Assembly (NCBI GenBank): GCA_963674595.2
Contig: CAXXFV010000008.1
Span: forward strand, 32,001 to 96,000
Direction of reading: 5' to 3'
DNA: 64,000 bases
DNA from: a bacterium
Lineage (GTDB): Bacteria; Zhuqueibacterota; Zhuqueibacteria; Residuimicrobiales; Krinioviventaceae
Positions 9,219 to 28,345 of this stretch are shown here, in pieces (the stretch's first letter is position 1; every line of letters starts with the position of its first letter). A program made the position numbers and the translations under genes. The notes beneath the pieces are model-generated. The model was given only the letters and a program-made list of their open reading frames with translations. It did not search any database and was not told the origin of the DNA.

Positions 9219-9401
9219 TTTATAAATGCCTGATAAATTATTTGAATTGGTGTGCAATTTTTGGTAACATAATAAATTACGGCATGAATGGCAATAGTTA
9301 TATAGAAAGCGTTCAAGATATTTTTCGATCAAGCCCTTGAATAATAAAATAAAAGAATGTACTTTACGAAATATAATATATTTCTGAAACGGAGATCCTT
9401 T

Positions 9402-16503: not shown

Positions 16504-18066
16504 CTATGCTGATTTGTTAAAATGAACATTTAACCGATTAAATGCAAACAAGGCCAATACCAGAAAGAAAGCGTAAAAGATACTGATTTTTGCTGGCCAA
16601 ATTGAAAGAGCGCCGATAAAAGCCGTTATTGTCATCAGGTCAACCATTCGATTTGATAGCTGTCTTGATGATATCCGTTGTTTGTTTTCGGATTTTATTG
16701 TTTGATATTTTTTTAAAACAGTTGTGATTATTAAAATAATTGCCACCGGTGCGAACAGGATAATACGCGCTGCCGGCCAGGCGTATTGGTCTACGGCTTT
16801 TGCGTCATAAAGTCCAAAAACAATACCGGCCCGTTCTGAACCGCCGTGAAACAGCAAAAATACCAGTAAAAAGGCGCTGTAGATCAGTGAAATTTTCCAA
16901 CGCTGCTCTTTTGATTTATTAGCGTCCAACGAGTTTTGTATTGGCGGACCCGTCACTAATATTGCAATAAAATAAAAAGCAGATAAAAAGATGACGGTCC
17001 AAATAAAGTATTCAAATCCGGCAAAAAAGATAAATACCGCACCCGCCAGCGCTGGGAAAATTGTCTCCAGCCATGATGTGTTGCTGATTATATGATCCGG
17101 TGGTGATTGTTTGGCCTTTTTTTGATCCTGCTCTTTGTCTGTTTGCCGGACCGCCCACAGCCATGCAATGGTGTATAACAGTCCCAGGTTAAATCCGGCG
17201 TTTAACTCCCACATTTTCCACCAGTCGATAAATTGGGGAGCCGTGCTGTAACCAAGGCACCATGTTGTGCTTTGCATAAATCCGATGCCGAAACCGAGTC
17301 CCAACAGCAAGCCCACGAACAATGTTTTTTGGTCTTTTTGCAAAACGGCCGTAACCAATGCCGCCAGCCACCACAATACCACGCAAAAATTTTGTGTGTT
17401 TGTATAAACCGTGCGACTGAGGTGTTTGCCAAGTTCGCCGGAATAAAGCCCCAAATCCGCATGGGGAAAGAGGAGTCCCGGACAGTATCGGGCACATTGT
17501 GTTCCCAGCCATTCAACAAAGGGCCAGGCAAACAGAAACACCAGTAACACAGCGACCAACAACGAACGGATTATCCAGTATCCTTTTGGTACTTTATCGC
17601 CCAGTACCCAGCCCAGGATAATAGCGCCGGGTGCGGCCCAACCGATGCCGCAGTAAAACAGCCATAAATAACCGTATGCCGGATTAATGCTCAAGATATC
17701 ATTGCCTGCGTAAAACATGCCCCGAATCCAGGACACATACTGACCATAGCCCAATTCACCGCCAAGGGCAAGACCCAGTCCCAGCCACAGAACAATGCCC
17801 CGTGCGTCAATGCCTTTACGATAACACAGGTAATACCAGATCATGCCCCAGGTCAGTCCCGGAACTATGGTGCCGTCAACGCCACCCCAGCCGGCCGTAC
17901 CGCGAATGGCCCAGGTAATGGCACCCATACTGCCGAATAATAAAATAGACAAGAGTGTTTCCCGCCAATCCAGTGAGTTCCCCTGATTTTTCATATTTCG
18001 GTATTCAAAATATCTTTTTTCATCCAAAACAGTCATCATAACAGGGCCTTTCTTTGGGTTGTTCAA
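16504..18066 (-). CDS. Multi-pass membrane protein of unknown function
   Basis: 520 aa ORF with many hydrophobic helices; true start may be ATG 17994. Confidence 0.7.
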   Translation of the reverse strand: MNNPKKGPVMMTVLDEKRYFEYRNMKNQGNSLDWRETLLSILLFGSMGAITWAIRGTAGWGGVDGTIVPGLTWGMIWYYLCYRKGIDARGIVLWLGLGLALGGELGYGQYVSWIRGMFYAGNDILSINPAYGYLWLFYCGIGWAAPGAIILGWVLGDKVPKGYWIIRSLLVAVLLVFLFAWPFVEWLGTQCARYCPGLLFPHADLGLYSGELGKHLSRTVYTNTQNFCVVLWWLAALVTAVLQKDQKTLFVGLLLGLGFGIGFMQSTTWCLGYSTAPQFIDWWKMWELNAGFNLGLLYTIAWLWAVRQTDKEQDQKKAKQSPPDHIISNTSWLETIFPALAGAVFIFFAGFEYFIWTVIFLSAFYFIAILVTGPPIQNSLDANKSKEQRWKISLIYSAFLLVFLLFHGGSERAGIVFGLYDAKAVDQYAWPAARIILFAPVAIILIITTVLKKYQTIKSENKQRISSRQLSNRMVDLMTITAFIGALSIWPAKISIFYAFFLVLALFAFNRLNVHFNKSA

Positions 18067-18115: not shown

Positions 18116-19120
18116 TTATAAATTTTTGTCCAAAAACCATAAAAGTGCAGGGAGGTCAATGACATGTCCTTCCCCATGCACATCCAGCATCAGGTTTTCA
18201 GGACGGTTATAGTCCCAGTAAATTGTTTGGATTTCTCTTAATGCTTCCCGTGCAATAGGAACATAAAACTGTGATAGGGGTTCTTTTTGCCCGTTTTGGC
18301 ACTGCAACGGACGGGGAGCGATTAATGAATAAATATCAGCAAAATCCACCAAATGACGCAAACCGGGAAACTTCCAGCACATGCAATGGTTTTGTTCCAG
18401 GTGGCCCATTTTGGTAAGGAATCCCGCACTCACAGTGGTTTGAATTCTGGTGTCCATTGCTCCGAGCCACATGGCCATTTCACCGCCGAGTGACAATCCG
18501 GCGCAGCCTATGCGGTTTTTCTCCACCATGTCGAGTGATTCCAGATAATCCACACAACGTATCAGGTCCCACAGACGTTCTCCCATCAGCAGCATATTAT
18601 TTTCGTATACCTTATGTTGGCTTACAGTTGTAGTTATCGTCACATAACCGTTGCAAGCCAGTTCGTGCGCAAATCTTTTATAGGGAGATTCGTCATCATA
18701 TACACTGCCAAGTTTTCCGCCATGTCCGTGGATACAAACCACAGCCGGAAACACCTTGCCGCTTGCTTTGGGCACTGTTATGATGGTCCGGATTCGTCGC
18801 CTGGGAGTAGTGTTTATGTCAACCTGTTTTAATATATAGTCGCCTTTATCTTCAGAAAGTATCACCTTTGGATTCAGGGCTATGTCTCTTTTATCCGCAA
18901 GCAAGTCTTCAAGTTTTAATGATTTGAAAAGCTGATTCCGAACCTCTTCCTGCCAGACGATTGCCGATCCCATTGGACGGCTGATATACTGCATCACACG
19001 CAATGCATCCTCCTGCGCCGGTAAGCCGCTGATGAAACATAATAAAATTACAAATGACACCTGTATCGTTTTAATTTTATTAAAACAATTTGAATTGAGA
19101 AATTTTATAAAGTAGTTCAT
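18116..19120 (-). CDS. Alpha/beta hydrolase (dienelactone hydrolase / Abhydrolase_7-like)
   Basis: CIHGHG, GCAGLSLGG nucleophile elbow, C-terminal GH; ATG 19120 preferred. Confidence 0.85.
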   Translation of the reverse strand: MNYFIKFLNSNCFNKIKTIQVSFVILLCFISGLPAQEDALRVMQYISRPMGSAIVWQEEVRNQLFKSLKLEDLLADKRDIALNPKVILSEDKGDYILKQVDINTTPRRRIRTIITVPKASGKVFPAVVCIHGHGGKLGSVYDDESPYKRFAHELACNGYVTITTTVSQHKVYENNMLLMGERLWDLIRCVDYLESLDMVEKNRIGCAGLSLGGEMAMWLGAMDTRIQTTVSAGFLTKMGHLEQNHCMCWKFPGLRHLVDFADIYSLIAPRPLQCQNGQKEPLSQFYVPIAREALREIQTIYWDYNRPENLMLDVHGEGHVIDLPALLWFLDKNL

Positions 19121-19257
19121 GAGGATATCCAATTTTAAAATCAATGACTTGGTTGTCAGGGTGTGTCTACTGGAAGTTAAGATTTTAATTTCTTTATCAA
19201 ATGGTGTCGACTTGTAAGCAATCAAGTATTCATTATATCTAATAATAAATCCCGCGA

Positions 19258-19383
19258 CTAGAAATGGAACCTCAACCGATTGTGTTTCAGAGAATGTCGT
19301 AAACTCCCAACCGTGCTGAAAAACAATCTGTTATGGCTGATAAATGAATAATACAAATTATATAAAAATCGCGCAAGTTTTTT
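19258..19383 (-). repeat. Promoter+leader module copy 1
   Basis: Aligns with 20915-21040 and 22068-22181; minus strand TTGCGC-17bp-TATTAT then TTTTTCAG..CGGTT..CTGAAACACAATCGGTTGA. Confidence 0.9.
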
Positions 19384-19417
19384 AATGTAAAAATGAAATA
19401 TTTTTTTTAGTGTATTT

Positions 19418-20005
19418 TTACAACCGTGCATTTAAACAATCCGATTGCCAGTTTAACGGATTGTTTTCAATGTATTCGTAAATTCGATTGAAATCCTTTT
19501 GATCGCGTATGATGTGTTCATAATAATTTCGCTGCCATAATTTTTTTTCAAACGGTATCCAGGCCGATTGGTTTACCCCGTGGACGTATTCAAGGGTGGT
19601 GATGGATTTAAATGCCTGAACAATACGACCGATTGTATTCGGTAATGTCCCGTAGGGGCGATCCTTGTGATCGCCTGTACAAGATTCGGGGTGAATATGT
19701 GATTCCGGGTGAATACAAGATTCGGGGCGAATACAAGATTCGCCCCGACCGTGTATTGAAATGATGCCGTGGACATGGTTTGGCATGACGATAAATATTT
19801 CTGTATTTATGTGATTGAATCGTTTGGGCAATTGTTGCCAAATGTTTCGAACCATCATTCCTGAATCGTTCATAATCATTTTTTCATTAACAACGTTGCC
19901 CAACAAACATTTTTTGTTTTGGATGCAAATTGTTATAAAATACGCCCCTGGCTGAGAATAATCATATCCTTTTAATCTGATGGAATGCCGGTTCTTTGTA
20001 TTCAT
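19418..20005 (-). mobile_element. REP-associated tyrosine transposase (RAYT, Y1/HUH)
   Basis: RHSIRLKGYDYSQPGAYFITIC, VMPNHVHGII (HUH), WQRNYYEHIIR, YIENNP; REP palindromes inside and upstream. Confidence 0.92.
19652..19749. repeat. REP doublet with 18-bp tandem units inside the RAYT ORF
   Basis: GTAGGGGCGATCCTTGTGATCGCC ... GGGGCGAATACAAGATTCGCCCCGAC; encodes ESCIRP-ESCIHP-ESHIHP-ESC. Confidence 0.85.
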
Positions 20006-20029
20006 TTTTTAATTCTCAATTATTATATC

Positions 20030-20155
20030 GTAGATGCAATTCTGTGTGATTTTCGTGCTGCATAGAAACATACCAAGTGCGGACACGGAGATGTGTCTTT
20101 AAAGGGCAGACATAGATATCTGCCTTTAGCGGGCAGACACAGGGTCTGCCCCTAC
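20030..20155. repeat. REPIN/BIME-like REP cluster upstream of RAYT
   Basis: GGGCAGACACAGGGTCTGCCCCTAC (20131-20155), degenerate copies at 20104 and 20077 (27-bp period), opposed degenerate GTAG-REP at 20030. Confidence 0.8.
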
Positions 20156-20241
20156 GAATTTTTTGGATTCTGATTTGAAACCAGGTTATCCAGGTGTAAC
20201 TGCCGTGTGTAACAGCCATATTCTTACACCATAATAATATT

Positions 20242-20779
20242 AAACCGAGAGTATTTAAAATATCCGTTCGTCAGATCACAAATAGCAATATGATTTGTGA
20301 ATATCAAATATGAACGCTATGGTTCCAAATTTGCGCTGGCGTAGGTATAACAACTTTTTGCGTCAATTTCTAATTTTATTCGATACGTACCACTGCTTAA
20401 TTCGATACCGCTTTCGCTTGTATGGGTATTCGTATCTTCAAGGTGAAGATATGCATAGGTCCCTCCGCCGCTTTTTTGGAGCCATGCCTGACTTGTTGTT
20501 CCGTTGGCACTACTTTTCCAGAGATTCATGGTGTATTCTTTTCCATCCGGGACCGTTTCCCAACTTGAATATACCGTCACACATTCATTATCTCCACTTC
20601 CATAAACCTCTATCAAGCTTTCAGCAACAACAATAGCAGCTACTAAAAGGACCGTAAGGACTAAAATAACACCTGTTTTTTTTATGCTCATTTTAATACT
20701 CCTTGGTTTAATTTGTACTAAATTTTAGCATTCCGCATCCCTTAACAATCGGTTTAATTATTAGAAATACTCTCGGTTT
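20242..20779. repeat. Segment bounded by perfect 15-bp inverted repeats AAACCGAGAGTATTT / AAATACTCTCGGTTT
   Basis: IRs at 20242-20256 and 20765-20779. Confidence 0.85.
20317..20691 (-). CDS. Small secreted hypothetical protein (124 aa, beta-rich, 2 Cys)
   Basis: AAGGAG RBS; signal peptide MSIKKTGVILVLTVLLVAAIVVA. Confidence 0.75.
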   Translation of the reverse strand: MSIKKTGVILVLTVLLVAAIVVAESLIEVYGSGDNECVTVYSSWETVPDGKEYTMNLWKSSANGTTSQAWLQKSGGGTYAYLHLEDTNTHTSESGIELSSGTYRIKLEIDAKSCYTYASANLEP

Positions 20780-20914
20780 TAACTGTTTAACATTTTTGGT
20801 TGTATCTTTTTCGACAAGCAGACATACCTCACCCTGTAAAACAATTTTGACAGTAAAATAACAGGAATTTGATTTTCGCCTCCACGTAATCTTTCCTTGT
20901 ATACTTGCCCATGT

Positions 20915-21040
20915 TTAAAAGTGGAACATCAACCGATTGTGTTTCAGAAAATCCCGCAAAATGCCAACCGTACTGAAAAACAATCTGTTATGGCTGATAA
21001 ATAAATAATACAAATTATATAAAAACCGTGCAAGGTTTTT
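20915..21040 (-). repeat. Promoter+leader module copy 2
   Basis: TTGCAC-17bp-TATTAT; near-identical to copy 1. Confidence 0.9.
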
Positions 21041-21187
21041 TACAAGAAGGGTTGTAAATTTCAAGGTGTGTGTATTGAATACAAGTTAACAGGTGAGCGC
21101 TGGAAAGCCTGTGAGAGCGTTTTGTTGAAGGACAATATTTTATGAAATCCGTTATTTAAGCATATTATAAAACTAGTGTTAATCTGA

Positions 21188-21892
21188 TTATCTTTCTGAA
21201 AAGATTTTTTTATACATTTTATAATGATCTGTTTCTTTGTATTCGGTTAGTTTAACCGAATTATCATCGAAACTAAAAATCCTGGCATTTTCATATGTCA
21301 ACAAAATAGGAGAGTGGGTCGCAATAACAAACTGGGCATGCCCTTGCAGAGTGTTTTTTTGAATAATTTCCAGTAATGCAAGCTGACTTTTTGGTGACAA
21401 CGCTGTTTCCGGTTCATCGAGAAAATATATGCCTTTTATCTTGTAACGAGACTCAAAGTATGACATCATGGATTGACCATGGGATTGTGTAATAAGGGAT
21501 TTTCCTCCGAAATATTGTAGCTGCCTGGGATCAGCGGCTGCCCAACCATCGACAATTTTTCTAAAGTCATTAAAAATTTCTGAACCAAAGTATGCGCCGG
21601 GCACCTCTCCATTTACCCACTTGACGGAAATATACCTGAATAATTGTTTTTCGTAGTGATTACCCTGAAAACGGACACTTTCATCCCGGCTCCATATATG
21701 AACGTTACAGGCGAGGGCTATGGCTTCCAGTAACGTAGACTTGCCTGTTCCGTTCTCTCCTACGAAAAAAGTTACCGGTGACTCGAATGTCAATTGTTTG
21801 GTGCGATTAAAAATCGGCAAAGAAAAGGGGTAATAATTATCGCATGGGTATTTTTCATGATGCAGTGTTACACTGGAAATATGATTATTCAT
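21188..21892 (-). CDS. Predicted ABC-type ATPase (COG3910-like)
   Basis: GENGTGKST, QSHGQS, LDEPETALSP, ATHSPIL motifs. Confidence 0.88.
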   Translation of the reverse strand: MNNHISSVTLHHEKYPCDNYYPFSLPIFNRTKQLTFESPVTFFVGENGTGKSTLLEAIALACNVHIWSRDESVRFQGNHYEKQLFRYISVKWVNGEVPGAYFGSEIFNDFRKIVDGWAAADPRQLQYFGGKSLITQSHGQSMMSYFESRYKIKGIYFLDEPETALSPKSQLALLEIIQKNTLQGHAQFVIATHSPILLTYENARIFSFDDNSVKLTEYKETDHYKMYKKIFSER

Positions 21893-22067
21893 TTTACTTG
21901 TTAACCTTTTTAGGGTGAATATGTTTTCTTTTTGATCGCCCGGGAATTTGTTCATTCGGACGGATTAATGAGTCCAACTCTCAATTTTATAATGTTCCAT
22001 TTAACGATGATGGTTTATATCTGTTAAGGCCGGACCTTTATTTTCCACCCCTGGAGGTCGGCTCCTC

Positions 22068-22181
22068 TGGACGATCAACCGATAGTGTTTCAGAGAATTT
22101 TCAAGTTTTTAACCGCTCTGAAAAAGTTTTAAGATAATGAATGAATAATACAAATTATATAAAAACAGCGCAAGGTTTTTA
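22068..22181 (-). repeat. Promoter+leader module copy 3 (more diverged)
   Basis: TTGCGC-17bp-TATTAT; TTTTTCAGAGCGGTT..CTCTGAAACACTATCGGTTGA. Confidence 0.85.
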
Positions 22182-22259
22182 TGGAAAATAATTGTATTTA
22201 TTTAAGCCCGGGATGTTCGTAAAAATTATCAGATATTGCAGTAATAGTAAAAATGTTTG

Positions 22260-22302
22260 AATGCAAAAAAGGATGGTGGCAGACACCATCCTTTTTTGCA
22301 TT
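22260..22302 (-). terminator. Rho-independent (bidirectional-type) terminator
   Basis: AATGCAAAAAAGGATGGTG-GCAGA-CACCATCCTTTTTTGCATT perfect 19-bp stem just after the stop at 22315. Confidence 0.85.
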
Positions 22303-22314
22303 ATTGGTTTGAAA

Positions 22315-24600
22315 TTATTTCACTAGCATAATTTTTTTTACATCGATAAACTCACATGCCGTTATTTTGTAAAGGTACAAACCACTTGGGCATATTGTTC
22401 CCTGTTCGGTGCGGCTGTCCCAAACTATGGAATAGGAGCCGGCCTGTTGGGTTTTACTTACCAGCGTTTTTATTTTTTGGCCTTTAAGATTAAATATTTC
22501 AAGTGTGACATCGGACTTTTTCGGAATGCTGTATTGAATTGTTGTTTCCGGATTAAAGGGATTGGGATAGTTTTGGGAAAGTTTGTATTGGGTCGGTAGT
22601 GTTTTCGGTGACTGTTTTGGGGCGACATCCGTTACGTTATAAGTATAAGAACCCACGTAAAAGTTGTCAAACTCGACCTCATTTTGCGTGTTAACTGAAT
22701 TGATGACAAATACACCAACACGACCGAGATAAAGGGTTTCTGTTTTTATTTCGCCCAGATAACCACCATTGCAGTAAAATTTGACAATGCTGTCCCGTGC
22801 AGCAACCTCAAGGATATTACATTGTTCCAGTCCCTGTTTAATAAAATCTGATGAGCCGGTAAGCATGGGGTATGCCCAGCTTTGGCCATCAAACATATCA
22901 ACATAAAAAGATCCGTTTGTTGAAACGTTAAAATAATAGGTCATGTCAGACTGGGGATCGTTTTTGAAGGCAATTCCGAACGGATCTGCCGTACCGTTTG
23001 TTTTTGTGCATTGAACATGCATGTTTAAGTTGAAAAAATTTTCATTAAGAAATGCATGTGATAAAAAGTCAGACTGGGGATTATAGTTCAGTTTATTATC
23101 ATTTACAGACCAGGCATTTGCGTCAGCCGGTGAGGATACCCAGTTTGACGGTAGTGTTGCACTTTGCTGGTTAAAGTGATAAAAATAATCTTTTGGGCTG
23201 GTTTTAACGATTAATACATCCGTATCCTGACCGCTATGCTCATTATTTCGATCAGGGAAATTTACGTTTGCAGCGGGAGCGTCTCCAAAGATATAAATAT
23301 TCATATCCTCATCGACATAAATGTCTGCAAAATGATTTCCTATAAGTGGCAGAACGCAGTCTTCTGTAATAAACCATTGATGCGTTCCCAGGTCTGCGTC
23401 AAAAAATTGTATAGCGAAAAAACTGGGTGTGCTTTTCGCAATTGTAATAATTTTACGGCACGGCAGCAATTTGGGACGGTCAACACAACCACCCCATTGA
23501 TTGGAATAAGAGTTCCAGTCAATATCGCCACTGTTTTCGTCAATTTTAGTCAGGTAACCATCTCCGCCATCAAAATTGTACGGCTCAATAATATCACCTT
23601 CCATGTTTTCTGAATACGTCCAACCAGATACCCATAGGTTTCCCAGATTGTCACCGATAATGCTGTTAGCATGATCGTTGTTTGAACCGCCGATATAAAG
23701 TGACCAGATGACATGTAAATCTGAATCCATTTTACATGCAAAAGCGTCGTAATAATCACCGTTTCCACCATGCCACTGATTTACCGCATTGGGTAAATCA
23801 TACGTTGTACCTGCATATTGCCAGTCAATATCTCCTGCCAGGAAAATATCCCCTTCACCATTGATAAAAATATCACTTGCCTTAACAGCTCCCTGTGATC
23901 CGCAATACCAGACAGATTTGACCACATTTCCGTCCGTTGTTAGTTTTGAAACAAAGGTATCCTGAGCGCCGGTAAATTCGTTTTCGACTTTTAAAAGTTG
24001 ATAATTATAGGAATAGCCGGTAACATAAATATAACCATCATACATACGCAAAGCATTCCCCTGTGAACCGTAGGAGCCGTTGGTGAGAAAGCGTGTCCAT
24101 TCAATTGAGCCGGACGTAGCGCTTAAACAGGATACATACGCTCCATAACCCCATCCTGGATTCAGTACTCCGGGAATATCATTTGCGTCGGATTTCCCGG
24201 TGACATAGATATTTTCCCCTTCAGGATCAATTGTAATACCGTTAACGGTGCTATAATTTGTTCCACCGATATAGGTAGTCCAGAGAATAGAGCCGTTTTC
24301 ATCTACTTTCGCTGCGAAACCGCAGGTATTATCCCACGGATGCGAATTGGTCCTGTTTGGCAGGTTTGCTGTTCTGGTTTCCCCAACGAGATAAAAATTG
24401 CCTTCTGCATCGGTATCTGTTTGGTTAATTATATCATATCCTCCCCAAAAGACATCGCTGCCGCCAATAAATGTTGACCAGTGTAATTGTAGTGAATCAA
24501 TGGCAAAAGAGGGTGTTGTGCAGAACAGAAAACAGGCAAAGGTAATAAATATTATCACCTGACTGTTGAATTTAAAAAGTTTTGAAAAATTGAGAATCAA
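22315..24600 (-). CDS. Secreted SBBP-repeat beta-propeller protein with lectin-like module and C-terminal secretion (T9SS type A/FlgD-like) domain
   Basis: Repeated WSTFIGG/WTTYIGG/WSLYIGG, GNFYLVG; LSQNYPNPFNPETTIQY...SGLYLYKI...KKIMLVK; GAGGAGG RBS with TTG start. Confidence 0.85.
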   Translation of the reverse strand: MILNFSKLFKFNSQVIIFITFACFLFCTTPSFAIDSLQLHWSTFIGGSDVFWGGYDIINQTDTDAEGNFYLVGETRTANLPNRTNSHPWDNTCGFAAKVDENGSILWTTYIGGTNYSTVNGITIDPEGENIYVTGKSDANDIPGVLNPGWGYGAYVSCLSATSGSIEWTRFLTNGSYGSQGNALRMYDGYIYVTGYSYNYQLLKVENEFTGAQDTFVSKLTTDGNVVKSVWYCGSQGAVKASDIFINGEGDIFLAGDIDWQYAGTTYDLPNAVNQWHGGNGDYYDAFACKMDSDLHVIWSLYIGGSNNDHANSIIGDNLGNLWVSGWTYSENMEGDIIEPYNFDGGDGYLTKIDENSGDIDWNSYSNQWGGCVDRPKLLPCRKIITIAKSTPSFFAIQFFDADLGTHQWFITEDCVLPLIGNHFADIYVDEDMNIYIFGDAPAANVNFPDRNNEHSGQDTDVLIVKTSPKDYFYHFNQQSATLPSNWVSSPADANAWSVNDNKLNYNPQSDFLSHAFLNENFFNLNMHVQCTKTNGTADPFGIAFKNDPQSDMTYYFNVSTNGSFYVDMFDGQSWAYPMLTGSSDFIKQGLEQCNILEVAARDSIVKFYCNGGYLGEIKTETLYLGRVGVFVINSVNTQNEVEFDNFYVGSYTYNVTDVAPKQSPKTLPTQYKLSQNYPNPFNPETTIQYSIPKKSDVTLEIFNLKGQKIKTLVSKTQQAGSYSIVWDSRTEQGTICPSGLYLYKITACEFIDVKKIMLVK

Positions 24601-24837
24601 GTTACACCTCCTCAGCTTGTTGTTACAGTATTTTTTTAATTACCGTAAAACTTTCAGCCGATTTACATATCGGAGGAAGTGGAATGATGTAAGATTAGAA
24701 TAATAATACCGGATCGGCTGAATGATGTGCAGGCTTTTAAAAGATAACCTTTATTAATAATACATTAACTTGATAAAAAAGGCAAGAACTAAATTGAAAT
24801 TGATGTGGGTTGTTGTTTTCGTTTTATTTTGTGGTTC

Positions 24838-25121
24838 AAACAATCCGAATGCCAATTTGACGGATTGTTTTAAATGAATTCATAAAATCGATTTTTATCA
24901 TTTGGGTCGGGTAAGATGGTTTCATAATAATTTCGTAGATATCCAGGGCGAATACAAGATTCGCCCCTATGGGGAATTATCATATACTTATAATCTGGTG
25001 TAATATCGGTTCTATTTATTCATTTTTATAATGCTTGAATTATTATATCGTAGGTGCAATCCTGTGTGATTTCCATGCAACATAGAAACATAATAAGGGC
25101 AGACGTAAGGTCTGTTCCTAC
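24838..25121 (-). pseudogene. Internally deleted, degenerate RAYT copy with REPs (MITE-like remnant)
   Basis: 24838-24935 aligns to RAYT 3' end (from 19434); ~24975-25092 aligns to RAYT 5' end and upstream region (~19960-20072); REPs at 24946-24970 and 25097-25121. Confidence 0.85.
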
Positions 25122-26232: not shown

Positions 26233-27252
26233 TTATTCAACAATCACTTCCACACTGATGATATTTTCATCAAAATCACCGAGATATTGTTTTAAGGTTC
26301 TGCCATAGTTAAAAGCCAGGAATATTGGGAGTTTTTTAGACAATTTTTGCGGGGTTTTAAAGCCCATACCATAGGTAAATCCGGTATAATTGTCTTCTTT
26401 GTTTTCCAGTTTAAAATTATAACCCATTCTGCCATACATGTATGAGAAAAATTGTAATTCAAGACCGGTGCCGAGACGGTTCCAATCGTATGAATAATAT
26501 GTTTTTTCTGCTAAAGTTTTTTGATATTCAACCGTCCCCAGTAGCCCCAAATTCAGTTCACTGAAATCTTTGATATAATAAAGACCGCAACGAAAGAGTT
26601 GCATAGGTTTTGATAAAATATAGGGTCCTTTTTTTAAATCACCTCCTAAATTTGTTATCGATAAACCCAGTCCCCAAATTTCTTTTTCGGCTGTTTTGTG
26701 CCTGCATTGTATGCCGACATCAAACCATAAAATGTTTTCTTTGTTCGGATCCAGTTTTTCTTCATAGTATTTTGCATTTGTGCCTATTGACAATGAATTT
26801 TTACCTTTTACTATTAATCCGGATGCAGAAAATGAATAGATCTTAATTCCGGATTCATACTTGAATATTTTGGGACTATGTTCTGTTGTATAGCTGTGTT
26901 CTCCCAAATTCAAATAAAGATAGTTAACGGCAACAAAAAGGTTTTTATTTATTCGTAGTGCCAGTCCCAGATTTTCCTGGTTATAGCGGCCTTTTTTATC
27001 ATCAATTCCGTATTTTATTTTTGGATAATGCGAATAGCTTATCATCGCTTTTTTCATAAACGACAAACCTGCCGGATTTGTGTATATGGAAAACAACCCT
27101 TCACTATAGGCCGTTCCGGTCAGGCCCAGAGCTGTTCCGCGTGCATCGCTTGGTCTGAATGTATAGGGGATTTCCAGGATGTTACTCTGTGAAAAAAGAT
27201 ATGATATGTTGAGCAAAGACAACAATGTCAAAATTAGCATTTTTTTATTCAT
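26233..27252 (-). CDS. PorV/PorQ-like outer-membrane beta-barrel protein
   Basis: Signal peptide; RPSDARGTALG..YTNPAGL; WFDVG, GLSITNLG, GRMGY motifs. Confidence 0.75.
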   Translation of the reverse strand: MNKKMLILTLLSLLNISYLFSQSNILEIPYTFRPSDARGTALGLTGTAYSEGLFSIYTNPAGLSFMKKAMISYSHYPKIKYGIDDKKGRYNQENLGLALRINKNLFVAVNYLYLNLGEHSYTTEHSPKIFKYESGIKIYSFSASGLIVKGKNSLSIGTNAKYYEEKLDPNKENILWFDVGIQCRHKTAEKEIWGLGLSITNLGGDLKKGPYILSKPMQLFRCGLYYIKDFSELNLGLLGTVEYQKTLAEKTYYSYDWNRLGTGLELQFFSYMYGRMGYNFKLENKEDNYTGFTYGMGFKTPQKLSKKLPIFLAFNYGRTLKQYLGDFDENIISVEVIVE

Positions 27253-27340
27253 GATTTACCTTTCCATGTTATAACTAAATCCATACAAGGGAAAACTGAT
27301 GTTAACTGAAAACATGTCATTTTTTTGATTGATGAATCAA

Positions 27341-28345
27341 TCATTCCAGTTTAATTTCAATACTGAATACATTTTGATTAAAAGAATGATAATTCTTGAG
27401 CCCTTTGCTATAATTTAACGCAATGTAAATAGGAATTGAGTCGGAAAGTTTTTTGGGTGTTATAAAGCCTATACCATAGGTGAAACCTTGCTGCTTATTG
27501 TCAACGTTTTCCAAATTTATATTATAACCGATTCGGCTGAATAAGTGATTAAAAAACCGCATTTCAAGTCCCGTGCCGATACGTGACCAGCGATATTGAG
27601 GAGCGTCTTCATCTCTCAGGCTTTTTTGGTATTCAACGGTCCCTAGTAGTCCAACAGGAGAGTTTTGGATTTGTTCTTTAAGGATTGAACAACCGATACG
27701 TAATAATTCCAAGGGTTCGAGAATTACGTAATCATTGTCTTTTAAATCATTTCCCAGGTTTGTTATGGATATTCCAAGTCCGAATGTTTCCTTTTTAGCT
27801 GTTTCATGTCTATACTGAATACCGATGTCAAACCAGTATACATCAACTTGATATGAATCAATTTTTTCATCATAGTATTTGGCGTTCAATCCAATGGATA
27901 ACGTGTGTTTTTCGTTTTTTATCATTAAACCTGATGCCGATAGGGAATACATTTTAAAAAAGGAGTGTTCCTTTTTGGAATTGTAAGAGCTGTACTCACC
28001 ATAGTTGAGGCAAAAATAGTTATAAGCGAGAAACAGCCTTTTAAAAAGTTGAAAACCGATACCTGCGTTGTCCTGATTATACCGGCCTTTGTCATTAACG
28101 TTGTATTTTGTTGAAGGGTAACGGGAATAGCAAATATTTGTTTTCCCTATAAATGATAAACCTGCCGGATTCGTATAAATAGAAAACATTCCTTCACTAT
28201 AGGCTGAACCTGTTAAACCCAGAGCTGTTCCCCGAACATCATTCGGTCGGATCGTATGCGGAAAATCAAGAACAGCTCCCTGTGGAAATAAATAATTTAC
28301 ATTGAATAAAATCAGAGTTATAAGATACAGCATTTTTTTATTCAT
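27341..28345 (-). CDS. PorV/PorQ-like outer-membrane beta-barrel protein (tandem paralog)
   Basis: RPNDVRGTALG..YTNPAGL; co-linear with 26233-27252. Confidence 0.75.
   Translation of the reverse strand: MNKKMLYLITLILFNVNYLFPQGAVLDFPHTIRPNDVRGTALGLTGSAYSEGMFSIYTNPAGLSFIGKTNICYSRYPSTKYNVNDKGRYNQDNAGIGFQLFKRLFLAYNYFCLNYGEYSSYNSKKEHSFFKMYSLSASGLMIKNEKHTLSIGLNAKYYDEKIDSYQVDVYWFDIGIQYRHETAKKETFGLGISITNLGNDLKDNDYVILEPLELLRIGCSILKEQIQNSPVGLLGTVEYQKSLRDEDAPQYRWSRIGTGLEMRFFNHLFSRIGYNINLENVDNKQQGFTYGIGFITPKKLSDSIPIYIALNYSKGLKNYHSFNQNVFSIEIKLE

What the first reader, a model, noticed from the sequence alone, without database searches (positions are those of the whole stretch)
19258..22181. Three copies of a ~120 bp promoter+leader module, each in front of an unrelated gene
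Seen: 19258-19383, 20915-21040 and 22068-22181 align. Each has a minus-strand sigma70-type promoter with exact 17-bp spacing and extended -10 (TTGCRC-N15-TG-TATTAT). About 25 nt downstream is a conserved block TTTTTCAGnnCGGTT-(variable)-CTGAAACACWATCGGTTGA. The TTTCAG/CTGAAA pairing is kept in all three and extends to TTTCAGAG/CTCTGAAA in copy 3. Downstream genes are unrelated (alpha/beta hydrolase, secreted 124-aa protein, ATPase), and homology stops abruptly. Inference: a portable expression unit, either an unnamed cis-regulatory RNA/sRNA or a fixed boundary of gene cassettes. It matches no riboswitch I recognise.
Basis: partly seen in the sequence, partly recalled or inferred. Interest (0 to 1): 0.75.

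Follow-up and report, generated by a model that had tools for sequence, protein, structure and literature searches.

The report
Triplicated promoter-hairpin before unrelated genes
A little-known bacterium carries three copies of a 120-letter promoter-plus-RNA-hairpin unit, each in front of a different accessory gene, most likely a reusable switch that helps new genes get expressed, an idea already known from other bacteria and viruses.

Summary
The repeat is real: three same-strand copies, 107/120 (c1-c2) and 90/120 (c3) identical, with unrelated flanks and no further copy in the window. Each holds TTGCRC-17-TATTAT, which fits this genome's own promoter style. The 'extended -10' is not the TGn type. 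In c1 and c2 a 70-nt hairpin starts at the predicted +1 (z about -3.8), with 0/45 substitutions in the arms against 7/25 in the loop. c3 keeps only the inner stem. The copies look mosaic: promoters are equidistant, while c3's RNA part is far more diverged (p=2e-4). No Rfam match. An 18-base arm motif gave only 18 chance hits in 185,579 GTDB genomes. Three sequences cannot show covariation. The host looks KSB1/Calditrichota-like, with no close sequenced relative. Best reading: a portable promoter and leader copied by recombination between copies in an accessory-gene hotspot, working like 'putative mobile promoters' or phage PeSL cassettes but meeting neither definition. Not attC; the end-of-transposon reading found no support. 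Live rivals: paralogous small RNAs, a dif-like recombination core, a small-ORF remnant. Transcription and mobility are untested.

The parts
19258..19383 (-). Module copy c1: A-tract, -35 TTGCGC (19376-19371), 17-nt spacer, -10 TATTAT (19353-19348), predicted +1 at 19341, hairpin 19341-19272, short conserved tail
   Evidence: MFE -24.4 kcal/mol, z -3.75, 0 of 200 shuffles as good
20915..21040 (-). Module copy c2: -35 TTGCAC (21033-21028), -10 (21010-21005), predicted +1 at 20998, hairpin 20998-20928 closing on the first nucleotide
   Evidence: z -3.84; outer-helix pair probabilities 0.84-0.99
22067..22180 (-). Module copy c3: -35 TTGCGC (22173-22168), -10 (22150-22145), predicted +1 at 22138; outer 5' arm replaced and 5 nt shorter, 8-bp inner stem kept, 3' arm 18/19 identical
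   Evidence: (z -0.98)
19347..19368 (-). 22-nt block invariant in all three copies (also 21004-21025 and 22144-22165); covers most of the spacer and the -10 and contains an ATAA-N6-TTAT palindromic core
   Evidence: the run alone is only borderline within the promoter block (p 0.051)
19291..19315 (-). 25-nt variable loop of c1 holding the invariant CGGTT (24-25 nt in the other copies)
   Evidence: 7 of 25 positions differ between c1 and c2, against 0 of 45 in the arms
18116..19120 (-). Alpha/beta hydrolase gene behind c1 (ATG at 19120; the longest ORF starts with TTG at 19225); most codon-atypical of 32 genes tested
   Evidence: z -4.1
20317..20691 (-). 124-aa ORFan behind c2
   Evidence: only its own cluster among 12 candidates scored in the 5.8-billion set (lengths 68-217 only); Atlas best score 0.89, unnamed
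21188..21892 (-). AAA_21-type ATPase gene behind c3 (234 aa; homologues are mostly 234 aa, which fixes the start)
   Evidence: 82% to unnamed proteins, 78% to a Bacteroidota MAG, 69-71% to Desulfosarcina
19418..20155 (-). REP-associated (Y1) tyrosine transposase gene 19418-20005 with two REP-like hairpins at about 20101-20155, lying between the ORFan and c1; neighbour, not shown to be part of the module
   Evidence: NF047646 58 bits, below its cut-off of 80; hairpins read, REP label recalled
22260..22302 (.). Two-way terminator-like hairpin about 80 nt upstream of c3, ending the 761-aa gene
24642..24791 (-). Unproven fourth, diverged copy: TTGCCT-17-TATTAT (24785-24757) then a 10-bp inverted repeat (24722-24713 / 24662-24653) resembling the outer helix, in the leader of the 761-aa FlgD-domain gene
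   Evidence: for; against: no covariance-model hit at E<=10, no profile hit, leader scores below average among 44 promoter-like sites

Best explanation
The 120-bp unit is a housekeeping-sigma promoter fused to a 5'-terminal RNA hairpin, present as three direct repeats in an accessory-gene hotspot. SHOWN: the repeat, its sharp ends, its fit to the host's promoter style, the foldability of c1 and c2 from the predicted +1, uneven conservation, and mosaic relationships between copies. INFERRED: RNA polymerase starts at 19341, 20998 and 22138 and, meeting no intrinsic terminator, reads 220-310 nt into the next gene; the hairpin on the first nucleotides most plausibly protects or processes the 5' end and does not sense a ligand. 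INFERRED, weaker: the copies arose and were reshuffled by recombination between repeats, so that a segment 'module + whatever follows' (1140 bp with the ATPase; 1657 bp with the ORFan and later the transposase) could be added or lost at a resident copy and arrive with its own promoter. No dedicated recombinase is needed. It works like a reused mobile promoter or a phage PeSL linker.
For: Promoter-like sites of the same form lie before housekeeping genes of the window (59542, 59479, 61198, 54238, 24785). The hairpin base coincides with a +1 predicted independently from the -10. c1-c2 differences: 0/45 in arms, 7/25 in loop, Fisher p 4e-4; 4/42 in the promoter. Variable columns cluster over the three-way alignment (longest run p 0.005). 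Copy-specific changes are 2/2/2 in the promoter but 2/2/21 in the RNA part, p 2.4e-4, as expected of a chimeric c3 or of conversion between c1 and c2. Five of the 7 most codon-atypical of 32 genes lie at 16.5-26.2 kb. One passenger is an ORFan; the ATPase is closer to its nearest homologue (82%) than the housekeeping MazG is (74%) and its named relatives span phyla. No terminator-like site in the three leaders. Repeated promoter-stem-loop units beside ORFans are shown to recombine into mini-circles in T4-like phages (PMC2839356).
Against: No transcript data. The sigma-70 scan did not list these three promoters, since they score 8 of 12 against its cut-off of 9. The c1 and c3 leaders contain other promoter-like sites (19210, 19159, 21919), so those genes may not need the module. 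c3 does not fold better than shuffles. Covariation is not above control. Only three copies in 64 kb and none found elsewhere, so there is no empty site and no second context to show mobility. The 137-223 nt between module and start codon are unrelated between copies, unlike PeSLs, which end in a ribosome-binding site and start codon. Only the hydrolase's codon signal is strong (z -4.1); the ORFan's is ordinary (z -0.1). Uneven substitution could also come from loop-biased mutation or gene conversion without selection.
Confidence: 0.45

Rival explanations
1. Three paralogous small-RNA genes of about 75-85 nt, each with its own promoter; the protein genes between them are incidental insertions.
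For: Conservation begins at the promoter and stops about 10 nt after the hairpin, far from the next start codon. The 3' arm stays 18/19 identical in c3 although its pairing partner is gone, as for a sequence read by a protein or a target RNA.
Against: No U-tract terminator follows any copy, though the genome has such terminators. No Rfam match, no covariation, no homologue.
Confidence: 0.15
2. The invariant block is the core of a dif-like tyrosine-recombinase site (11+6+11 bp) and the 80 bp beside it are accessory sequence; repeated site-specific integration of small circles built a cassette array, and the promoter is incidental or overlapping.
For: ATAA-N6-TTAT core; one 11-bp arm is wholly invariant and its outer edge is exactly the edge of the invariant block, while the other arm varies in its outer part, the pattern described for dif sites (PMC6449649). 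Five complementary pairs at positions 7-12/17-22 (read from the sequence) pass the palindrome rule of PMC3025954. Its XerD-like arm fits best among the 15 such cores in the window (5 of 7 outer positions against at most 4). The inferred breakpoint of c3 can lie in this block.
Against: The arm reads TTATA, not the TTATG of all three seed dif sites and of nearly all sites tabulated in PMC10132070. Six other places in the window match a loose dif pattern with 2 or fewer mismatches, and 59 matches at up to 3 mismatches equal chance (mean 50.9). No GC-skew reversal here. dif modules are flanked by inverted sites; these are direct. No integrase or resolvase among 54 ORFs scanned.
Confidence: 0.13
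3. The unit encodes a small peptide, or is the 3' remnant of a lost gene: a 41-codon minus-strand frame ending at the stop where c1-c2 homology ends.
For: Of 15 c1-c2 differences 10 are at third positions and 9 codons change silently (stop included); p 0.006 for the best of six frames, 0.00025 when shuffled within segments.
Against: The boundary was chosen after the fact: without the last three codons p is 0.11 (0.03 within segments). No shared start codon or ribosome-binding site; c3 has an in-frame stop and keeps the DNA block in a shifted frame. No silent change in the 22 codons of the arms and invariant block. No hit among 1.84 billion representative proteins, in Pfam or NCBIfam, on plasmids or beyond E 7 in phages; Atlas best score 0.76.
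Confidence: 0.1
4. Leftovers of a tandem triplication of a promoter and its original gene; the genes were later lost or replaced and the copies now decay neutrally.
For: All copies lie within 3 kb on one strand; tandem paralogues occur nearby (two PorV-family genes); c3 is partly degraded.
Against: Substitutions are strongly uneven, all three promoters are intact, and no shared gene remnant follows the tail.
Confidence: 0.1
5. The unit is the right end of the neighbouring REP-associated Y1 transposase element, carrying an outward promoter; c2 and c3 are solo ends.
For: c1 starts 35 nt after the transposase stop; the candidate c4 lies a similar distance after a decayed second transposase copy; the c1 loop and 3' arm align with the gene's 3' end.
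Against: That alignment ranks only 8th among real window tiles. The best covariance-model score around 5 related plasmid transposases is E 0.24, though these are only 30-39% identical. c1 is far closer to c2, which has no transposase beside it. c4 is unproven. The module lacks the GTAG-footed hairpin seen at 20101-20155 (REP feature recalled).
Confidence: 0.06

Closest known systems
Putative mobile promoters (PMPs; Nijveen, Matus-Garcia and van Passel 2012, PMC3575422)
   Same: Homologous upstream non-coding sequence of about 100 bp before non-paralogous genes of one genome; function and route of movement unknown; mostly no Rfam match.
   Different: PMPs were defined in the window -150 to -50 from the start codon; these modules lie further upstream and the literal test gives at most 25/50 identity. 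Most PMP families are pairs; here three copies stand in tandem before consecutive transcription units.
PeSLs of T4-like phages (PMC2839356, PMC4122927)
   Same: About 100-bp repeated unit with an AT-rich stretch, sigma70-like -35/-10 and a stem-loop, in direct orientation between variable genes and ORFans; chimeric copies expected from exchange between them.
   Different: PeSLs are phage elements present about 50 times per genome; their stem-loop lies at or before the start site and terminates upstream transcription; they end in a Shine-Dalgarno sequence and ATG. Here the hairpin is inside the predicted transcript, has no U-tract, and 137-223 unrelated nt follow. Circles have not been shown.
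dif/pdif sites and dif modules (PMC6449649, PMC3025954, PMC10132070)
   Same: 11+6+11 layout with palindromic inner ATAA/TTAT, one invariant arm, sites bracketing single accessory genes.
   Different: XerD-like arm lacks the G of TTATG; sites are direct, not inverted; 90 bp of further conserved sequence; no terminus signal.
Integron attC arrays (PMC5027507)
   Same: Imperfect 70-nt inverted repeat between unrelated genes on one strand; an AAC and a GTT can pair in c1.
   Different: No RYYYAAC/GTTRRRY boxes, no extrahelical bases, the would-be central spacer is paired, c3 lacks the 5' half, a 42-nt promoter block is co-conserved, and no integrase lies in the window.

Membership tests
Putative mobile promoter (PMP) | >=80% identity over >=50 nt within -150..-50 of the start codons | tested here: not met
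   Best 50-nt identity 20-25/50 for both start-codon choices; the module lies further upstream. Outside that window c1-c2 is 107/120.
Putative mobile promoter (PMP) | Adjacent coding sequences not paralogous | tested here: met
   Hydrolase, ORFan and ATPase share no family
PeSL | sigma70-like promoter with AT-rich upstream region | tested here: met
   Sequence match only; activity untested
PeSL | Stem-loop at or upstream of the start site acting as terminator | tested here: not met
   Hairpin spans +1 to +70 with no U-tract; PeSL positions
PeSL | Shine-Dalgarno and start codon at the 3' end of the unit | tested here: not met
   137-223 unrelated nt lie between tail and start codon
PeSL | Recombination between copies gives mini-circles and empty sites | not testable with these tools
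   Mosaic pattern is compatible; no reads or sister genomes available
dif/pdif site | 28 bp, 11+6+11, more than four complementary pairs at positions 7-12/17-22 | tested here: met
   Five pairs, read from the sequence; rule. Such cores are common: 15 in the window
dif/pdif site | XerD arm beginning TTATG | tested here: not met
   TTATA or TTATT by orientation
dif/pdif site | At the replication terminus, or in inverted pairs around a module | tested here: not met
   Skew mostly positive on both sides; all copies direct
dif/pdif site | Bound and recombined by XerC/XerD | not testable with these tools
   Needs biochemistry
attC | RYYYAAC and GTTRRRY boxes | tested here: not met
   c1/c2 read CCATAAC; 3' boxes read GTTGAGG, GTTGATG, GTTGATC; c3 has no AAC in register (definition)
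attC | Extrahelical bases and unpaired central spacer | tested here: not met
   c1 folds symmetrically with the spacer paired
attC | Score against the IntegronFinder attC model | not testable with these tools
   That model is not on hand
Rfam riboswitch or sRNA family | Match at gathering score | tested here: not met
   0 matches in the window; none of 10 weak matches at E<=10 in 18900-22500 overlaps a module
Structured ncRNA (new) | Covariation across homologues | tested here: inconclusive
   3 sequences; 1 of 19 pairs with a two-sided change, 181 of 500 shuffles as high
Protein-coding gene or gene end | Homologues and a conserved open frame | tested here: not met
   0 hits; stop in c3; synonymous bias boundary-dependent

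The most novel reading that the evidence does not exclude
The module is a chromosomal, integrase-free cassette linker of a KSB1-like lineage: a promoter overlapping a Xer-like core, joined to a transcribed structured RNA, that lets single-gene circles integrate in tandem and be expressed at once. It would be a cellular counterpart of phage PeSLs and a route to integron-like arrays without an integron.
Probability: 0.15. Interest if true: 0.78.

Novelty: new variant of a known kind. Interest (0 to 1): 0.42.

Why it matters
How horizontally acquired genes get a working promoter is an open question. Over 4,000 families of reused promoters are catalogued with no known route of movement (PMC3575422), and recombination through repeated promoter units has been shown for phage PeSLs (PMC2839356). 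A tandem chromosomal case with three small, adjacent, mosaic copies gives a direct test by inverse PCR or read mapping. As it stands it is one locus in one genome with no homologue found, so its reach is limited until more copies turn up.

Tried and rejected
Rfam at both thresholds: nothing on the modules. tRNA/tmRNA: none. blastn of c1 against plasmids and phages: only 24-33 nt chance pieces. The single GTDB scan used an exact 18-base arm motif: 18 loci, about the 17 I estimated for chance; none carries the rest of the module and none scores with the covariance model at E<=1. That scan cannot see relatives with one changed base, and it did not return this window's own copies, so the species seems absent from the collection. 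Further copies in the window: none by profile or covariance model. Small-ORF reading: tempting codon pattern, no homologues, broken in c3. Likeness to the transposase's 3' end: passed a shuffle null but not a real-sequence null. Fourth copy at 24.7 kb: found with hand-picked motifs; best of 44 promoter-like sites under one of three scorings only, leader below average under all three; left unproven. A 15-bp inverted repeat around the ORFan as element ends: window-wide p 0.21 (the first shuffle count was inflated by self-palindromes) and not among the top 30 arm-profile hits. An alternative 5'-end/loop pairing: formed only in the 36-45 nt intermediates of c1, probability 0 at full length, unfavourable in c3. 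Chromosome terminus: no skew switch. Literature: no paper holds the 19-nt arm; a KSB1 search listed 15 unrelated papers; the primary PMP paper is not held. The look-up of exact protein clusters could not be made, and metagenome and viral contig collections stayed unchecked, so copies in this organism's other contigs or in unbinned relatives are unknown.
Full report
OBSERVATION. The three copies exist as described, all on the minus strand, 1657 and about 1140 bp apart. They are 107/120 (c1-c2) and 90/120 (either with c3) identical. The block patterns match 3 times against 0 in 100 shuffles. A profile and a covariance model built from them find no further copy in the 64 kb: the best outside hits are E 0.23 and E 1.5. 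Two hundred bases on either side share nothing that survives inspection.

HOST AND SETTING. The housekeeping MazG has no homologue above 74% identity, and most of its named relatives are candidate division KSB1 or Calditrichaeota MAGs at 60-69%. The host is therefore probably a KSB1-like bacterium with no close sequenced relative (inference). The minus-strand order is: 761-aa FlgD-domain gene, two-way terminator, c3, ATPase, c2, 124-aa ORFan, REP-like hairpins and a Y1 transposase, c1, alpha/beta hydrolase. The ORFan matches only itself (lengths 68-217 searched). The ATPase's nearest homologue is 82% identical, and named ones are Bacteroidota and Desulfosarcina (only the 8000 best candidates were scored). 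Five of the 7 most codon-atypical of 32 genes lie at 16.5-26.2 kb, though only the hydrolase is a strong outlier. A decayed second transposase lies at 24835-25104. Of 54 ORFs scanned against Pfam, none is an integrase or resolvase; the Y1 transposase is the only mobility gene.

ANATOMY. Each copy has an A-tract, TTGCRC, 17 nt and TATTAT. The generic scan omits them because they score 8 of 12, but sites of the same form precede several housekeeping genes, often with TG abutting the -10. So the promoter is plausible, and the 'extended -10' label is wrong in the TGn sense (recalled definition). Taking +1 seven bases after the -10, c2 folds into a hairpin that closes on its first nucleotide, and c1 into the same inner helices with a shifted outer register. 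Both beat all 200 shuffles (z -3.75, -3.84); the plus strand folds less well (z -1.0, -2.1); c3 is ordinary (z -0.98) and keeps only an 8-bp inner stem. Between c1 and c2 the arms carry 0 of 45 differences, the loop 7 of 25 (p 4e-4), the promoter 4 of 42 and the tail 4 of 14. Copy-specific changes are 2/2/2 in the promoter but 2/2/21 in the RNA part (p 2.4e-4). That means a chimeric c3, conversion between c1 and c2, or relaxed constraint on c3's RNA. c3 keeps 18 of 19 bases of the 3' arm without its partner, so pairing alone does not explain that arm. Covariation cannot be shown: 1 of 19 pairs, matched by 181 of 500 shuffles. The module ends far from the start codons, with predicted leaders of 221, 307 and 246 nt, and no terminator-like site lies in them.

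RELATIVES. Rfam gives nothing. Plasmid and phage collections give only short chance pieces. One exact scan of 185,579 GTDB genomes with an 18-base arm motif gave 18 loci, at the level I estimated for chance, and none carries the rest of the module. This is a weak negative, since one changed base hides a relative. Metagenome and viral contigs stayed unchecked.

MECHANISM. I read the unit as a promoter with a 5'-terminal hairpin that drives whichever gene follows, copied and reshuffled by recombination between the direct repeats (confidence 0.45). The repeat, folding, uneven conservation and mosaicism are shown; transcription, the hairpin's role and mobility are inferred. Against it: the c1 and c3 leaders hold other promoter-like sites, c3's hairpin is weak, and there is no empty site or second context.

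RIVALS. Paralogous small RNAs (0.15) explain why conservation stops after the hairpin, but lack terminators. A dif-like core (0.13) fits the edge of the invariant block and is the best XerD-like arm among 15 cores in the window, but lacks the TTATG seen, loose matches are at chance level, the sites are direct, and skew does not reverse. A small ORF (0.10) has 9 silent changes among 15 (p 0.006), falling to p 0.11 without the last three codons, with no homologue in 1.84 billion proteins and a stop in c3. Neutral leftovers (0.10) fit the clustering but not the uneven substitutions. A transposon end (0.06) failed a real-sequence null and a search around 5 distant relatives. attC fails on boxes, extrahelical bases and spacer.

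A FOURTH COPY? The leader of the 761-aa gene has a similar promoter and a perfect 10-bp stem resembling the outer helix. The motifs were picked after seeing it, and model-based tests do not support it. I give it about one chance in four.

KNOWN SYSTEMS. It works like the putative mobile promoters of PMC3575422 (read: part 1 of 2, the whole main text) but fails their positional rule. It resembles phage PeSLs (PMC2839356: passages and sections 15 and 16; PMC4122927: part 1 of 3) but differs in hairpin position, terminator role and 3' end. For dif and attC I saw passages only: PMC6449649, PMC3025954, PMC10132070, PMC5027507. The primary PMP paper was not held; no supplements were read, and the PMP family lists there could hold a relative. 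No paper in the library contains the 19-nt arm; searches found no description of such a unit in this lineage.

VERDICT. A real, apparently constrained, lineage-restricted repeat: a new variant of promoter reuse, not a member of any family tested. Interest 0.42. The boldest reading left open, an integrase-free cassette linker with its own structured RNA, has probability about 0.15 and would merit 0.78.

Noticed in passing
window 24642-24791 (-): Promoter-like site and 10-bp inverted repeat resembling the module's outer helix, before the 761-aa FlgD-domain gene and just after a decayed transposase; possible distant fourth copy, not supported by models.
   Followed up: yes
window 20242-20256 and 20765-20779: Exact 15-bp inverted repeat bracketing the 124-aa ORFan, 61 nt after its stop and 74 nt before its start; the only such pair 50-1000 nt apart in the window (p 0.21). 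Possibly ends of a small insertion cassette or operator sites.
   Followed up: partly
window 24835-25104 (-): Decayed second copy of the REP-associated transposase, 82-85% identical in four segments to 19431-20084 and lacking much of the middle.
   Followed up: partly
window 19678-19757: 18-bp tandem repeats and a REP-like hairpin inside the transposase reading frame, giving repeated 'C-I-x-P-E-S' peptides.
   Followed up: no
window 19436-19468 and 24838-24870: Both transposase copies end in the same 10-bp hairpin, 50-60 nt before a promoter-like site.
   Followed up: partly
window 9282-9322 (-): Best non-module hit of the promoter-block profile (19.8 bits against about 51 for the copies), between two divergent glycoside-related genes; no hairpin follows. 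May be a shared operator or house style.
   Followed up: partly
window 20194-20231: Further hairpin-like stretch between the ORFan's left inverted repeat and the REP-like pair.
   Followed up: no
window 26233-28345 (-): Two tandem PorV/PorQ-family genes (below the NCBIfam cut-off) near a gene with FlgD and Por-secretion-tail domains.
   Followed up: no
window 20317-20691 (-): ORFan with a hydrophobic N-terminus; Atlas look-alikes unnamed (0.88-0.89) and a weak phage head-spike-fibre domain match (E 0.003, below cut-off).
   Followed up: partly
window 16504-18066 (-): 520-aa membrane-like protein with no Pfam or NCBIfam match, directly after the hydrolase and possibly co-transcribed from c1.
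   Followed up: no
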